A stretch of 45,684 nucleotides of DNA from Bacteroidaceae bacterium (GCA_045111535.1 JBGUGM010000194.1:1-45684); one strand, 5' to 3'; positions 12,884-43,219 are shown, numbered from the stretch's first letter. The notes: generated by a model not told the origin, from the sequence alone. Made by a program: numbers and translations.

Positions 12884-13831
12884 ATGCAATTGATGAGTAG
12901 TAAGGATACAACTGCCAAGCCTTGTGTGGCGACGATTGGCACCTTCGACGGTGTACATCGTGGACACCAATTCGTGGTGCAGCAAGTGGTGAATCAAGCC
13001 CGTGAACGAGGACTTGAGGCTGTGGTTGTCACCTTCCCGAATCATCCTTTACAAGTGCTTCAACCCAGTCTTCAACCCCAGATGCTCACCTTGTCGGATG
13101 AGAAGGAGATGCTCCTCCAGAAGACAGGTGTTGATAAGGTGGTGATGGTGGAGTTCACAAAGGACTTGGCACAGATGAGTGCCCGTGACTTTATGCATAC
13201 CATCCTCCAAGAACAACTGAATGTGCAGATGCTGATGATGGGGTATGACAATCGCTTCGGACATGACCACAAGGGCTTCGATGATTATCATCGCTATGGA
13301 CAGGAACTGGGTATGGAAGTTATCGGGTGCAATGAGTTGGTTTCTGAACAGCGCATCTCCTCTACGACTATTCGGCAGGCATTGCTGAGAGGTGATGTGG
13401 AAACAGCCCATGCCTTGCTCGGCTATCATTACTCCTTGCAAGGTGAGGTGGTGCAGGGTTTTCAGAATGGTCGTAAGTTGGGTTATCCCACGGCTAACCT
13501 GCAAGTGAATCCTTGCAAACTTATTCCTGAGAATGGTGCCTATCTGGTAAGGTGCCAACTCTCAACTCTCAACTCTCAACTCTCAACTCATTACGGTATG
13601 CTCAATGTGGGCACTCGTCCCACCCTTCATAATGGTCAGCAACGGAGCATCGAGGTGCATCTCTTCGATTTTGACGGTGACCTCTATGGTCAAATGTTGA
13701 CCCTTGAACTCTTACACCATCTTCGTAAAGAACAGGAGTTCGGCACCTTGGAAGCCTTACAGCAACAACTGGCCACTGACGAAGCAGCCTGCAAAGCATG
13801 GCTCCAACAGTCACCCAACTATAACCTCTAA
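12884..13831 (+). CDS. ribF: Bifunctional riboflavin kinase / FMN adenylyltransferase
   Basis: 315 aa. IGTFDGVHRGHQ nucleotidyltransferase motif at the N-terminus and NVGTRPT...EVHLFDFDGDLYG riboflavin kinase motifs at the C-terminus. Confidence 0.92.
   Translation: MQLMSSKDTTAKPCVATIGTFDGVHRGHQFVVQQVVNQARERGLEAVVVTFPNHPLQVLQPSLQPQMLTLSDEKEMLLQKTGVDKVVMVEFTKDLAQMSARDFMHTILQEQLNVQMLMMGYDNRFGHDHKGFDDYHRYGQELGMEVIGCNELVSEQRISSTTIRQALLRGDVETAHALLGYHYSLQGEVVQGFQNGRKLGYPTANLQVNPCKLIPENGAYLVRCQLSTLNSQLSTHYGMLNVGTRPTLHNGQQRSIEVHLFDFDGDLYGQMLTLELLHHLRKEQEFGTLEALQQQLATDEAACKAWLQQSPNYNL
13556..13590 (+). repeat. 35-bp heptamer module (CAACTCT x4 + CAACTCA) inside ribF
   Basis: Read directly from the sequence. 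Translates as QLSTLNSQLST. Confidence 0.95.
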
Positions 13832-13858
13832 CCCCTCAACTTTACCCTTTATCCACTC

Positions 13859-14479
13859 ATGCTTGAGATTCTCAACACCCTCGTTTCGCTTGACCTCTTC
13901 AAGGTGTTCTTTTGTTGTGACTTGGAGAAGTGTCATGGAGCCTGTTGCATAGAAGGTGATGCAGGTGCCCCTGTCACGATGGAAGAGGTAGGGCTCCTTG
14001 AGGAAGCCTACGAGGTAGTGCATGACGACCTCTCGCCAGAAGCCCAGCAGCAAATAGAAGCAGAGGGAGTGGTATATCCTGATAAGGATGGTGAGTTGGT
14101 GACTCAGATTATCCGAGGCAAGGATTGTGTGTTTGTGAAATATGCTTCTCTGGAAAATCCAGAGAATGCGGAATCTCCGGACAAATCTCTTTGTGCGTTT
14201 TGTGCCATTGATTCCGCTTATCGTTGTGGACGTTTTCATTGGCAGAAACCTATTTCTTGTGCCCTTTATCCCGTACGGCTTTCCAAGGTGGGGGGTGTGA
14301 CGGCAGTCAATGTCCATAAGTGGGATATCTGCCAACCGGCTCGTGATTTGGGCAAAAAACTCCAGTTGCCCGTCTATCAGTTCCTCAAGGAACCTCTCAT
14401 CCGACGCTTCGGACAAGCATGGTGGGATGAGTGCGATTTGGCATATAAAGAACTTAAGAAAGCGGGCTATTTGGACTAA
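13859..14479 (+). CDS. DUF3109-like Cys-rich protein
   Basis: 206 aa. N-terminus FFCCDLEKCHGACCIEGDAGAP resembles what I recall of the Bacteroidota DUF3109 family. This assignment is from memory only. Confidence 0.65.
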   Translation: MLEILNTLVSLDLFKVFFCCDLEKCHGACCIEGDAGAPVTMEEVGLLEEAYEVVHDDLSPEAQQQIEAEGVVYPDKDGELVTQIIRGKDCVFVKYASLENPENAESPDKSLCAFCAIDSAYRCGRFHWQKPISCALYPVRLSKVGGVTAVNVHKWDICQPARDLGKKLQLPVYQFLKEPLIRRFGQAWWDECDLAYKELKKAGYLD

Positions 14480-14568
14480 ACAGCCCTCAGAAAGCACGGA
14501 AAAATGAGAAAAAACAACATTTTTTCAAAAAAAAAGTGCTGAAAATGTTTTTTTACAAAAATTTATTA

Positions 14569-14576
14569 TAAATTTG
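14569..14576 (+). promoter_or_regulatory. -7 box (TAaaTTTG) upstream of zinc-ribbon/receiver genes
   Basis: TAnnTTTG match 97 nt upstream of the ATG at 14673. Confidence 0.45.
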
Positions 14577-14672
14577 CAACTTGACTGATGTACCCTAACC
14601 AAAATCAAACAGAGGAAAGGTGCTACAAACGACATTTGATAGTACAATAATCACTAAGTCGCACAAGAACAT

Positions 14673-42434: not shown

Positions 42435-42437
42435 TTG

Positions 42438-43148
42438 TTAATCCAAGTGTTCTACTAAGTAGTCAATGACGCGTTCATTGGCTACTTTTAATGTTTCACA
42501 GGCATGGTGGAGGTTGCGTGAGAACTCCTCGAAAGTTTCGGCACCGCTGTCGCAGAGGTCGGTGACGGACTTGACAAAGAGGATGGGGATGTTGAACAGG
42601 GAGCAGACGAAGGCGACTGCGGCACCTTCCATATCTTTCAGTTGTCCCCCATGCTTTTCGATGATTTCAAGGTCACAGGGTTGCATGTCCAACGACGAGC
42701 CCGTTGTGACCTTGCCCATTTTCATGCCTAAGGCTTGAGCCAGTGCCTGACTTCCTTCCCAGACAGGATAGTTGCCGATGCCCTGTGTGCACCAAGCATC
42801 GTCGCCTGGTACACGGCGATCGTGGAACATCACCCCATTGCCGATAAACACTTCAGCAATGTCGGCACCATGCTTCTTGAAGCCACCACAAGTGCCTGAG
42901 TTCACCACGATGTCGGGGTGCAGACGTTGAATAGCACTCAGGGTTGCCACTGATGCCGCTTCACAACCAATCAGGTTGCTGTCATGCTGCATACCGTTCA
43001 GCACCACGTCGAGGGTGGCGCCATTCACTTCGCCTTCGTAAAGTTCGCAGGGAAGGGGAGCGAAGAATCCTTCCACCTGCTGGATGCCATACCGTTCAAT
43101 GAAGGGCTGTGCTTCTGCCTTCATCGCCACTACGTAACAAATTCGCAT
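42438..43148 (-). CDS. Nucleoside phosphorylase-superfamily protein, MTA/SAH nucleosidase-like
   Basis: 236 aa. MRICYVVAMKAEAQPF N-terminus, SGTCGG, and DMEGAAVAFVC motifs typical of PNP_UDP_1 / MtnN-like enzymes. Confidence 0.65.
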   Translation of the reverse strand: MRICYVVAMKAEAQPFIERYGIQQVEGFFAPLPCELYEGEVNGATLDVVLNGMQHDSNLIGCEAASVATLSAIQRLHPDIVVNSGTCGGFKKHGADIAEVFIGNGVMFHDRRVPGDDAWCTQGIGNYPVWEGSQALAQALGMKMGKVTTGSSLDMQPCDLEIIEKHGGQLKDMEGAAVAFVCSLFNIPILFVKSVTDLCDSGAETFEEFSRNLHHACETLKVANERVIDYLVEHLD

Positions 43149-43171
43149 AGTCGTTTCCGTTATATTGTTTG

Positions 43172-43179
43172 CAAAAGTA
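43172..43179 (-). promoter_or_regulatory. -7 box (TActTTTG) for nucleosidase-like gene
   Basis: Reverse strand reads TTGTACTTTTGCAA, 24 nt upstream of the ATG at 43148. Confidence 0.5.
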
Positions 43180-43184
43180 CAAAT

Positions 43185-43219
43185 TTTTCACTTTTCATTT
43201 TTCACTTTTCACTTTTTTT
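43185..43219 (+). repeat. 35-bp heptamer module (TTTTCAC TTTTCAT TTTTCAC TTTTCAC TTTTTTT)
   Basis: Read directly from the sequence. Ends 3 nt before the -7 box at 43222. Confidence 0.9.

What the first reader, a model, noticed from the sequence alone, without database searches (positions are those of the whole stretch)
13556..43219. Recurring 35-bp module of five tandem heptamers at six or more loci, in promoters and inside genes
Seen in sequence: six loci each carry five consecutive 7-nt units spanning 35 bp (13556, 22998, 35169, 36239, 40710, 43185). Shorter versions occur at 8849 and 33882. Unit sequences differ between loci (CAACTCT, CAATTGT, CCGTTGT, CMACTGT, AACTYCT, TTTTCAC), so this is not one mobile sequence. 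The shared properties are period 7, about five copies with the last copy usually degenerate, and a pyrimidine-rich + strand whatever the orientation of the host gene. Three arrays end 3-8 nt before a TAnnTTTG -7 box. Three lie in frame in coding regions (ribF, the defence-like ATPase, the LRR surface protein). I know of no described element class with these properties. Possibilities include protein-binding arrays, slipped-strand contingency loci, and a mutational or replication signature tied to strand.
Basis: seen in the sequence. Interest (0 to 1): 0.62.

Follow-up and report, generated by a model that had tools for sequence, protein, structure and literature searches.

The report
Heptamer repeat arrays in Prevotellaceae promoters
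The window, from an uncultured rumen Prevotellaceae bacterium, carries six short tandem arrays of 7-base units, a known but poorly understood class of bacterial repeat; in this lineage they preferentially fill a fixed slot of about 32 bases just upstream of the core promoter box, keeping their length while their sequence turns over between species.

Summary
Six period-7 arrays of 4.3-5.1 copies lie at the stated coordinates, against 0.015 expected by chance. The locus at 33882 is not an array, and 8848-8867 has only 2.9 copies. The same excess holds in 2.3 Mb from related rumen Prevotellaceae: 141 period-7 arrays against 13, 39, 26 and 11 for periods 5, 6, 8 and 9. It is patchy between genomes. 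This is not an undescribed class. Heptanucleotide simple sequence repeats are a reported over-represented category in bacteria, with a polymerase-slippage hypothesis. What looks new is the fine structure:

- 84% of arrays are non-coding.
- 42 of 124 non-coding arrays end 0-12 nt before a TAnnTTTG box (5.4 expected). They span about -38 to -7 from the box and replace the usual -33 TTTG.
- At orthologous promoters the slot and the roughly 4.5-copy length are kept while the unit changes (AACTYCT, AACTCTC, ACACTAA, TTTCACT, ATTCCTC).
- Conspecific strains show no copy-number change, which argues against contingency loci.
- The + strand pyrimidine bias does not generalise.
- Coding arrays sit in variable loops or linkers.

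Best reading: slippage-born repeats kept where tolerated, above all in the upstream promoter slot. Whether they have a promoter function is untested.

The parts
13556..13589 (+). CAACTCT x4.9 (100% identity) inside ribF. It encodes QLSTLNSQLST in a variable loop of the riboflavin-kinase domain.
   Evidence: TRF. Pfam. The loop is 8 aa longer than in the L006 ortholog and aligns to a variable loop of solved RibF structures.
22999..23031 (+). AATTRTC x4.7, a promoter-slot array of the GH3-family gene (ATG at 23067). It ends 8 nt before the box.
   Evidence: L001 has TTTTTAG x4.7 at the same place, and L002 and L051 have no array there.
23040..23047 (+). TACCTTTG, a Bacteroidota -7 type promoter box downstream of array 2.
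   Evidence: The box and the 5'UTR are conserved in L001, L002 and L051.
35168..35197 (-). TCCGTTG x4.3 on the + strand (GACAACG on the coding strand), inside the AriA-like ATPase gene. It encodes part of KTTDNGQQTTEGE in a hypervariable loop.
   Evidence: Orthologs have loops 2-10 aa shorter (4-6 aa in most) between the conserved NEIQFIQ and TPYQLSSG. A contig from another strain spans it without an indel.
36239..36274 (-). CAACTGT x5.1 on the + strand, inside the 1294-aa LRR/DUF285 surface protein gene. It lies in the linker just before the C-terminal ~30 aa, which by my reading resemble a T9SS sorting domain.
   Evidence: Contigs of three runs span it without a 7-nt indel.
40710..40741 (+). 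(AACTTCT AACTCCT)x2.3, a promoter-slot array of the GATase_7-domain gene (ATG at 40783). It ends 6 nt before the box.
   Evidence: Orthologous promoters carry AACTCTC, ACACTAA, TTTCACT or ATTCCTC arrays of the same length.
40748..40755 (+). TAACTTTG box downstream of array 5.
43185..43216 (+). TTTTCAC x4.6. It fills the 42-nt gap between two back-to-back promoter boxes.
43222..43229 (+). TACCTTTG box for the + strand gene starting at 43273.
43172..43179 (-). CAAAAGTA, which is TACTTTTG on the - strand. This is the divergent box for the PNP_UDP_1 gene (42438-43148).
8848..8867 (+). TTGATAA x2.9, a short array in the 22-nt infB-cvpA spacer.
40452..40485 (+). AAAAAGTA x4.2 (period 8), the left arm of an inverted pair.
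   Evidence: Very high word depth in metagenomes.
40603..40633 (+). TTTTTACC x3.9 (period 8), the right arm of the inverted pair.
22953..22983 (+). Purine-rich period-8 array (AGTGAAAA x4.1, 72% matches) that encodes the C-terminal tail of RNase III and its stop codon.
   Evidence: Present in L002 and absent in L001.

Best explanation
The arrays are heptanucleotide simple sequence repeats. In this Prevotellaceae lineage a mutational process, most likely replication slippage or template switching, duplicates local 7-nt units far more readily than units of other lengths. Arrays grow only to a ceiling of about 35 nt.

Selection then decides where arrays persist:
- (a) The upstream half of sigma-A type promoters. 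Here a T/C-rich, G-free array occupies a fixed slot from about -38 to -7 relative to the TAnnTTTG box. It takes the place of the usual -33 TTTG and A/T-rich upstream sequence without changing promoter geometry.
- (b) Spacers after stop codons, often as inverted pairs that form long hairpins around terminators.
- (c) Short spacers before start codons.
- (d) Rarely, loop- or linker-coding parts of genes.

Shown here: the period-7 excess, the length ceiling, the placement, the orientation relative to promoters, the turnover of units at conserved slots, and stability between strains. Inferred: slippage as the generator, and that slot arrays serve as a tolerated or mildly useful substitute for ordinary upstream promoter DNA.
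For: Excess and length:
- Period-7 excess in the window, in 80 genome loci (90 arrays, against 9, 23, 21 and 9 for periods 5, 6, 8 and 9), and in 80 independently fetched metagenome loci (51, against 4, 16, 5 and 2).
- The length histogram has its mode at 30-34 nt and then drops about five-fold, in all context classes.

Signs of a mutational origin:
- Coding arrays are insertions in variable loops.
- Higher-order 14-nt structure, such as (AACTTCT AACTCCT)n, is common.
- Degenerate arrays sit at orthologous sites, which fits birth and decay.
- 36 of 147 arrays have a mirrored partner with the same unit.
- The same array family occurs in viral contigs away from any box.

Placement:
- 124 of 147 arrays are non-coding, although only 15% of the DNA is.
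- 42 of 124 abut a box, against 5.4 +/- 2.2 expected.
- Slot arrays start at -38 and end at -6.5 on average. 32 of 40 are pyrimidine-rich on the sense strand.
- Among 354 gene-proximal boxes, 12-25 have period-7 structure upstream and 0-1 have any other period.
- Back-to-back boxes prefer a 42-44 nt gap with or without an array: 42 nt with the array at 43172/43222, 43 nt without one at 18525/18576 and in L103.

Turnover and stability:
- Orthologous promoters keep the slot, the length, the box and the 5'UTR while the unit is replaced.
- There is no copy-number change between conspecific strains.

Published context: heptanucleotide SSRs are the most abundant long-SSR class in many bacteria, with a slippage hypothesis (Mrazek et al. 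2007, as summarised in PMC4679880 and PMC4692102).
Against: - A plain slippage equilibrium does not obviously predict the sharp ceiling at about 5 copies, nor the concentration of slot arrays at full length (20 of 34 at 30-34 nt).
- Arrays persisting at the same promoter in many species, with homogenised units, could instead mean selection for periodicity itself.
- A moderate preference for two registers relative to the box (Rayleigh p about 0.015, partly from orthologous promoters) hints at a structural or binding constraint.
- The reason for 7 rather than 6 or 8 is unexplained.
- No expression, TSS or read-level data could be brought to bear. RNA runs hold only 5-10% of the words, and all DNA runs are kept as contigs that break at the arrays.
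Confidence: 0.55

Rival explanations
1. The promoter-slot arrays are a selected functional module. This would be a heptad-periodic, G-free upstream promoter element that replaces the -33/UP region. It would be read by RNA polymerase (sigma region 4 or alpha C-terminal domains) or by an unidentified protein that binds with a 7-bp register. Periodicity and length would then be maintained by selection rather than by mutation alone.
For: - Both array boundaries are tightly placed: start -38 (30 of 40 between -36 and -40), end -6.5 +/- 1.9.
- T at -14, -21, -28 and -35 in 22-25 of 27 arrays, and G almost absent from -41 to -2.
- A preference for two registers relative to the box.
- Slot arrays are concentrated at full length.
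- Arrays persist at orthologous promoters across species with unit turnover but constant length.
- The canonical -33 TTTG, which sits at -24..-21 in 323 ordinary promoters, is missing in array promoters.
Against: - There are 65 different units, so no single sequence-specific binder fits.
- The same arrays, with the same length ceiling, occur after stop codons, in ORFs and in viral contigs where no box is near.
- Many orthologous promoters work without an array.
- The phase statistic is modest and not fully independent.
- No expression data are available.
Confidence: 0.25
2. The arrays are contingency loci. Frequent gain or loss of 7-nt units by slipped-strand mispairing would switch or tune expression, through promoter arrays, or switch reading frames, through coding arrays.
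For: - Tandem repeats in promoters and ORFs are the classic substrate for this.
- A heptamer example exists: H. influenzae hmw (ATCTTTC)n (PMC12721329).
- One coding array lies in a surface protein gene.
Against: - Six arrays compared between conspecific strains (array regions with flanks 97.6-99.1% identical) show no indel.
- Contigs from other strains span arrays 2, 3 and 4 with no 7-nt indel, while nearby 9-nt and 18-nt repeats do differ.
- Only 4-5 copies are present, against at least 11 in hmw.
- A frameshift in ribF or the ATPase would simply kill the gene.
- Because the array is periodic, adding a unit would not change the sequence at any fixed distance from the box.
Confidence: 0.07
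3. The arrays are a strand-specific mutational or replication signature, which would make the leading (+) strand pyrimidine-rich at arrays.
For: All six arrays in the window are pyrimidine-rich on the + strand. That strand carries most genes and has positive GC skew (0.029).
Against: - Across 105 distinct, clearly asymmetric arrays, the pyrimidine-rich strand is unrelated to locus GC skew (p=0.32) or to the majority gene strand (p=0.82). Inside ORFs it is 12 on the coding strand and 8 on the opposite strand.
- Orientation instead follows the adjacent promoter: 32 of 40 are pyrimidine-rich on the promoter sense strand.
- Three of the six window arrays are explained that way.
Confidence: 0.05
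4. The arrays belong to a mobile element, or to a mobile promoter cassette that copies itself between loci.
For: The same few units (TTTTCAC, AATTTTC, TCTTCAC, AATTCTC) recur at many loci. Their word depth in rumen metagenomes is 100-1000 times the local depth.
Against: - Flanks of the many copies are unrelated. Loose-end consensus agreement is 0.35-0.6 at the highly repeated array ends.
- Loops of inverted pairs share no sequence.
- No transposase, terminal repeats beyond the arrays, or target duplications are evident.
- Orthologous promoters keep their own flanks while only the array changes.
Confidence: 0.03

Closest known systems
Heptanucleotide long simple sequence repeats of prokaryotes (Mrazek, Guo and Shah 2007, as summarised in PMC4679880 and PMC4692102)
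   Same: Both are head-to-tail repeats of 7-nt units. They are more abundant than other 5-11 nt periods, mostly intergenic, and phylogenetically patchy. Slippage at the polymerase is the proposed cause.
   Different: The original survey could not be read here, and no paper found mentions Prevotella. Anchoring to the Bacteroidota -7 box, the ceiling of about 35 nt, and length-conserving unit turnover were not found described.
Cyanobacterial short tandemly repeated heptamers (three heptanucleotides of Calothrix PCC 7601, cited in PMC4692102; called STRR from my own knowledge)
   Same: Both are tandem heptamers, several unit types per genome, and intergenic.
   Different: The cyanobacterial repeats are a few fixed units in a different phylum, with longer arrays, and no reported fixed position relative to promoters.
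Xanthomonas GGGAATC and Nostoc GGGGAYT repeats (PMC4692102)
   Same: Both are an intergenic heptamer excess in one lineage. Some occur as inverted pairs, and they sit between the same genes in related species with length and sequence variation.
   Different: Those repeats are G-rich and quadruplex-forming with one dominant unit. The arrays here have 4% G on the T-rich strand and 65 unit types.
TAACTGA direct repeats of Beggiatoaceae, Cyanobacteria and five Bacteroidetes (PMC4679880)
   Same: Both have 2-6 copies of a heptamer, are intergenic, and are oriented relative to the downstream gene. They are absent at the same site in close relatives.
   Different: TAACTGA is a single unit placed within a few nt of the start codon, in the presumed 5'UTR. 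Here the main class lies upstream of the core promoter box. Only 23 of 147 arrays sit directly before a start codon or in a short stop-to-start spacer without a box.
H. influenzae hmw1A/hmw2A (ATCTTTC)n phase-variable repeat (PMC12721329)
   Same: Both are pyrimidine-rich heptamers upstream of a gene, and the hmw unit resembles the family here.
   Different: hmw has at least 11 copies, is transcribed in the 5'UTR, changes copy number within days of passage and tunes expression. Here there are 4-5 copies upstream of the box, stable between strains.
REP/BIME-type intergenic palindromes (own knowledge)
   Same: The inverted pairs after stop codons form 30-35 bp hairpins (z -9 to -13), like extragenic palindromes at 3' ends of genes.
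   Different: The arms here are tandem heptamers with no conserved family sequence. One pair encloses a separate canonical terminator (L134).

Membership tests
Heptanucleotide long SSRs (prokaryotic LSSR class) | Head-to-tail copies of a 7-nt unit, longer than chance allows. | tested here: met
   TRF. Six arrays observed against 0.015 expected in Markov simulations.
Heptanucleotide long SSRs (prokaryotic LSSR class) | Period 7 is in excess over neighbouring periods in the same genomes. | tested here: met
   Period 7 gave 90 and 51 arrays, against 4-23 for periods 5, 6 and 8 and 2-9 for period 9, in two independent locus sets.
Heptanucleotide long SSRs (prokaryotic LSSR class) | Mostly intergenic, and variable between related genomes. 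| tested here: met
   84% of arrays are non-coding, against 15% non-coding DNA. Presence, absence and unit turnover are seen at orthologous sites.
Heptanucleotide long SSRs (prokaryotic LSSR class) | Generated by polymerase slippage. | not testable with these tools
   Only indirect signs are available: 14-nt higher-order structure, loop insertions and concerted evolution. No mutation-rate data.
Phase-variable contingency loci | Copy number differs between closely related strains or within populations. | tested here: not met
   No indel in 6 arrays between conspecific strains. Spanning contigs show none at arrays 2, 3 and 4. Within-population reads were not available.
Phase-variable contingency loci | A one-unit change switches expression, by frameshift or by changed spacing of promoter elements. 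| tested here: inconclusive
   In ORFs a 7-nt step would frameshift a housekeeping gene (ribF). In promoters the periodic array leaves the sequence at fixed distances from the box unchanged. No expression data.
TAACTGA direct repeats (MacGregor 2015) | The unit is TAACTGA. | tested here: not met
   Not among the 60 most frequent of the 65 canonical units. The nearest in the window is CAACTGT.
TAACTGA direct repeats (MacGregor 2015) | The repeats lie within a few nt upstream of start codons. | tested here: not met
   The main class is upstream of the -7 box, 25-50 nt before the ATG. 23 of 147 arrays are start-proximal or in short stop-to-start spacers without a box.
Mobile element / MITE | Conserved sequence shared between copies beyond the repeat, with terminal inverted repeats and target duplications. 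| tested here: not met
   Flanks are unrelated. Loops of inverted pairs are unrelated.
Bacteroidota sigma-A promoter (-33 TTTG / -7 TAnnTTTG) | A TAnnTTTG box 20-40 nt upstream of the start codon, conserved in orthologs. | tested here: met
   Boxes lie at 23040, 40748 and 43222, and are conserved with their 5'UTRs in related species. TSSs were not mapped.
Bacteroidota sigma-A promoter (-33 TTTG / -7 TAnnTTTG) | A -33 TTTG element about 16 nt upstream of the box. | tested here: not met
   Ordinary promoters show T at -24..-22 and G at -21/-20 (35-39%). Array promoters have G in 0-1 of 27 at those positions.

The most novel reading that the evidence does not exclude
In a clade of rumen Prevotellaceae, several percent of promoters would use a heptad-periodic, G-free array of fixed length (about 32 bp, -38 to -7 from the TAnnTTTG box) in place of the -33 element and upstream A/T-rich region. 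The array would be a real promoter module, read by RNA polymerase or by a protein with a 7-bp register. It would be kept at constant length and register by selection, while concerted evolution rewrites its sequence.
Probability: 0.27. Interest if true: 0.75.

Novelty: new variant of a known kind. Interest (0 to 1): 0.5.

Why it matters
Prevotellaceae dominate the rumen and are abundant in the human gut, yet their promoters are poorly characterised and genetic tools are scarce. If the slot arrays affect promoter strength, they would define a compact promoter class of use for expression design in these organisms. They would also be a bacterial case of promoter tandem repeats that keep their length while losing their sequence.

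Even if the arrays are neutral, the sharp period-7 preference and the ceiling of about 35 nt are a clean signature of an unidentified property of the replication or repair machinery. That signature could be used to test the long-standing polymerase-contact explanation for heptamer excess in bacteria.

There is also a practical consequence. These arrays break short-read assemblies of rumen metagenomes at promoters.

Tried and rejected
- Exact-protein look-up of RibF found no contig.
- There are no tRNA genes and no Rfam families in the window, so the box at 43222 does not serve an RNA gene. It serves an ORF that starts at 43273 and runs off the window.
- ribF synteny was lost in all but one typA locus, so a close-ortholog comparison of array 1 was not possible.
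- Copy number could not be read from public runs. All runs are kept as k=31 contigs that break at the arrays, because the same array words occur at very many loci.
- RNA runs hold only 5-10% of the words, so they were not used for TSS mapping.
- The Mrazek 2007 paper is not held and is cited second-hand.
- Four literature searches for a Prevotella or Bacteroidota description found nothing specific.
- The viral-contig scan is heterogeneous (GC 20-70%). It shows only that the array family exists away from boxes.
- Rejected: coiled-coil heptads as the cause, because most arrays are non-coding.
- Rejected: an assembly artefact, because arrays occur in isolates, MAGs and metagenomes from many studies, and longer arrays do assemble in viral contigs.
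- Rejected: Rho-site or terminator roles for the slot arrays at 40710 and 43185, because their upstream neighbours are divergent genes.
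Full report
**What the window is**

The 45.7-kb window (49% GC) is a chromosomal stretch of an uncultured rumen Prevotellaceae/Bacteroidales bacterium. Its TypA is 99% identical to that of MAG RUG14675, and the best 80 hits are Prevotellaceae or Bacteroidaceae MAGs, mostly from ruminants. 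The DNA itself is held by many bovine, sheep and goat gut metagenomes.

Genes:
- nusA, infB, cvpA, sufBCD, ribF, a DUF3109 gene
- a TackOD1 protein with a response regulator
- hisS, typA, fabF, rnc, a GH3-family gene, tyrS, an arabinofuranosidase
- two dCache sensor proteins (one with histidine-kinase domains, one with a HAMP domain only)
- an AriB/AriA (PARIS-like) pair
- a 1294-aa LRR/DUF285 surface protein
- a GATase_7 protein and a nucleoside phosphorylase

**Check of the observation**

TRF and my own scan find the six arrays at the stated places, with 4.3-5.1 copies and 88-100% matches. Order-3 Markov simulations of the window give 0.015 such arrays, against six observed. Other periods are rare: none at periods 5 or 9, three weak arrays at period 6, and two at period 8. 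The 8848 locus is a genuine 2.9-copy array. The 33882 locus is not an array. Three arrays end 8, 6 and 5 nt before TAnnTTTG boxes at 23040, 40748 and 43222. Three lie in ORFs.

**Is it general?**

Yes, but it is lineage-specific.
- In 80 typA-centred loci from GTDB species representatives (1.42 Mb) there are 90 period-7 arrays of at least 3.5 copies, against 9, 23, 21 and 9 for periods 5, 6, 8 and 9. Many genomes have none, and some have 4-8 in 10-20 kb.
- In 80 independently fetched metagenome loci (0.92 Mb) the counts are 51, against 4, 16, 5 and 2.
- Array length has its mode at 30-34 nt and then falls about five-fold. Periods 5, 6 and 9 fall monotonically.
- When reads or contigs of rumen metagenomes are laid on the window, word depth at the arrays is 100-1000 times the local depth. 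Tens of contigs with unrelated flanks end there. The same array words therefore occur at very many loci in these communities.

**Where the arrays sit**

Of 147 arrays, 124 are non-coding although only 15% of the DNA is. Contexts:
- 43 in a promoter slot (a box within 12 nt)
- 43 within 80 nt after a stop codon
- 23 directly before a start codon or in short stop-start spacers
- 22 in ORFs
- 16 other

Forty-two non-coding arrays abut a box, against 5.4 +/- 2.2 under random intergenic placement (maximum 15 in 500 trials). Distances from array end to box are nearly all 1-11 nt.

In 40 distinct slot arrays the start is at -38 (30 of 40 between -36 and -40) and the end is at -6.5 +/- 1.9. Thirty-two are pyrimidine-rich on the promoter sense strand.

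Aligned on the box, T occupies -14, -21, -28 and -35 in 22-25 of 27 arrays, and G is almost absent from -41 to -2. The register preference is moderate (two registers, Rayleigh p about 0.015) and some of these promoters are orthologous.

Ordinary promoters in the same DNA (323 boxes) show the expected -33 TTTG at -24..-21 and A/T-rich blocks at -9..-5, -29..-25 and -41..-36. Array promoters lack the G of the -33 element. Among 354 gene-proximal boxes, 12-25 have period-7 structure upstream and 0-1 have any other period.

Back-to-back divergent boxes prefer a 42-44 nt gap (27 pairs), with secondary peaks at roughly 10-11-nt intervals. The gap is 42 nt with the array at 43172/43222. It is 43 nt without one at the window's own typA promoter (18525/18576) and in L103. 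The array therefore fills a pre-existing slot rather than adding DNA.

**Evolution at orthologous sites**

All these promoters keep the same box and 5'UTR.
- **GATase promoter**:
  - window: (AACTTCT AACTCCT)n
  - L084: AACTCTC x4.6
  - L082/85/86: ACACTAA
  - L081/83/87 and L096: TTTCACT
  - L088: ATTCCTC
  - L091, L101, L103: degenerate arrays
  - more distant relatives: none
- **rnc-GH3 spacer**:
  - window: AATTRTC x4.7
  - L001: TTTTTAG x4.7
  - L002 and L051: none
- **typA promoter:** arrays with different units in about ten of 80 species.
- **Neighbouring divergent promoter**:
  - L047 and L079: ATTCTTC
  - L054: AATTTTC
  - L068: ATTTTTC

Units are thus homogenised within an array and replaced between species, while slot and length are kept. 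This is concerted evolution, or repeated contraction and re-expansion.

At the strain scale the arrays are stable. Six arrays were compared between conspecific contigs whose array regions with 150-nt flanks differ by 0.9-2.4%, and none shows an indel. Contigs from other strains span arrays 2, 3 and 4 without 7-nt indels. A 9-nt repeat at 36053 and an 18-nt repeat at 37171 do vary.

**Coding arrays**

- The ribF array adds about 8 aa to a loop that is variable in solved RibF structures.
- The ATPase array lies in a hypervariable loop between NEIQFIQ and TPYQLSSG, which is 2-10 aa shorter (4-6 aa in most) in eleven orthologs.
- The LRR-protein array lies in the linker before the C-terminal ~30 residues, which look like a T9SS sorting domain (my reading of the sequence).

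These look like tolerated products of the same mutational process.

**Inverted pairs**

Thirty-six arrays have a mirrored partner with the same unit 13-162 nt away.
- Some are the two arrays of divergent promoters (L081, L087, L096).
- Others follow stop codons and fold into 30-35 bp hairpins (z -9 to -13). In L134 the pair encloses a canonical terminator.
- In the window the period-8 arrays at 40452 and 40603 form such a pair.

**Composition and strand**

There are 65 canonical units in 131 distinct arrays. The commonest are TTTTCAC, AATTTTC, TCTTCAC and AATTCTC. Composition on the T-rich strand is T 47%, C 25%, A 24% and G 4%. The pyrimidine-rich strand is unrelated to GC skew or to gene-strand majority. 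Inside ORFs it is 12 on the coding strand and 8 on the opposite strand. The window's 6-of-6 + strand pattern is therefore explained by promoter orientation plus chance.

**What is known**

- Heptanucleotide repeats were reported as the most abundant long-SSR class in many prokaryotes, with the proposal that 7 nt matches the DNA segment contacting the polymerase and so favours slippage (Mrazek et al. 2007, as summarised in PMC4679880 and PMC4692102).
- Related cases are the Calothrix heptamers, Xanthomonas GGGAATC and Nostoc GGGGAYT (intergenic, some inverted pairs, varying between species; PMC4692102), and TAACTGA repeats of 2-6 copies before start codons in Beggiatoaceae, Cyanobacteria and five Bacteroidetes (PMC4679880).
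- The one well-studied functional heptamer is the H. influenzae hmw (ATCTTTC)n tract. It has at least 11 copies, is transcribed, and is phase variable (PMC12721329).
- I found nothing on Prevotella or on anchoring to the Bacteroidota -7 box.

**Verdict**

The finding is real and belongs to a known kind, heptanucleotide SSRs. The claim of an undescribed class fails. The strand-signature and contingency readings are not supported.

The most likely account (0.55) is slippage-born arrays with an intrinsic ceiling of about 35 nt, retained mainly in the upstream promoter slot, after stop codons and in loop-coding DNA.

A real promoter function for the slot arrays (about 0.25) is not excluded. It is the interesting residue, for three reasons: both boundaries are fixed, full-length arrays dominate the slot (20 of 34), and length is conserved through unit turnover.

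Unexplained: why the period is 7, and why the ceiling is so sharp.

Noticed in passing
window 33894-35829 (- strand): The DUF4435 protein and the AAA_21 ATPase match PADLOC AriB (1.3e-58) and AriA (1.8e-55). This is a PARIS-type anti-phage pair. Array 3 sits in a hypervariable loop of AriA.
   Followed up: partly
window 35830-40700: The LRR/DUF285 surface-protein gene and its long upstream region are missing in related contigs such as L082, L084, L085 and L096. In those contigs the ATPase gene lies within about 130-150 nt of the GATase_7 gene. The region is a variable island.
   Followed up: partly
window 40452-40485 and 40603-40633, with 40511-40560 between: Period-8 arrays (AAAAAGTA x4.2 and TTTTTACC x3.9) form an inverted pair around an (AT)-rich low-complexity stretch. 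Their word depth in rumen metagenomes is up to 1000 times the local depth.
   Followed up: partly
all chromosomal loci; in the window 18525/18576 and 43172/43222: Back-to-back divergent TAnnTTTG boxes prefer a 42-44 nt gap (27 pairs). Weaker peaks lie near 12-14, 33-35, 54-56 and 63-65 nt, which suggests helical phasing of divergent promoters.
   Followed up: partly
window 36053-36070 and 37171-37209: A 9-nt repeat (intergenic) and an 18-nt in-frame repeat (LRR gene) differ by one unit between strains in public runs. The heptamer arrays do not.
   Followed up: partly
window 42276-42391: Inverted arrays of 9-10-nt units (AACGAATTA and AATTCGTTC) lie between the convergent GATase_7 and phosphorylase genes. 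Metagenome depth is elevated and the hairpin is modest (z -3.2).
   Followed up: partly
L161-L279 (viral contigs): At least 135 arrays of the AAYTYYY family occur in IMG/VR contigs, with lengths up to 131 nt. Only one has a TAnnTTTG within 60 nt. Several sit right before an ATG.
   Followed up: partly
window 22953-22983; L002: The C-terminal tail of RNase III is encoded by a purine-rich period-8 array (GTGAAAA-like). It is shared with L002 and absent from L001.
   Followed up: no
323 promoters in window and L001-L080: The extended promoter profile shows G at -1 (46%), T/A-rich -9..-3, the -33 TTTG at -24..-21, and A/T blocks at -29..-25 and -41..-36 relative to the first T of TAnnTTTG.
   Followed up: partly
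window 235-4008: A 1257-aa ORF has no Pfam hit and carries GAG/GGA-rich low-complexity repeats at 948-1105.
   Followed up: no
window 39437-39622: A 78-nt repeat (2.3 copies, 70% matches) lies inside the LRR protein gene. It probably reflects the protein's repeat modules.
   Followed up: no
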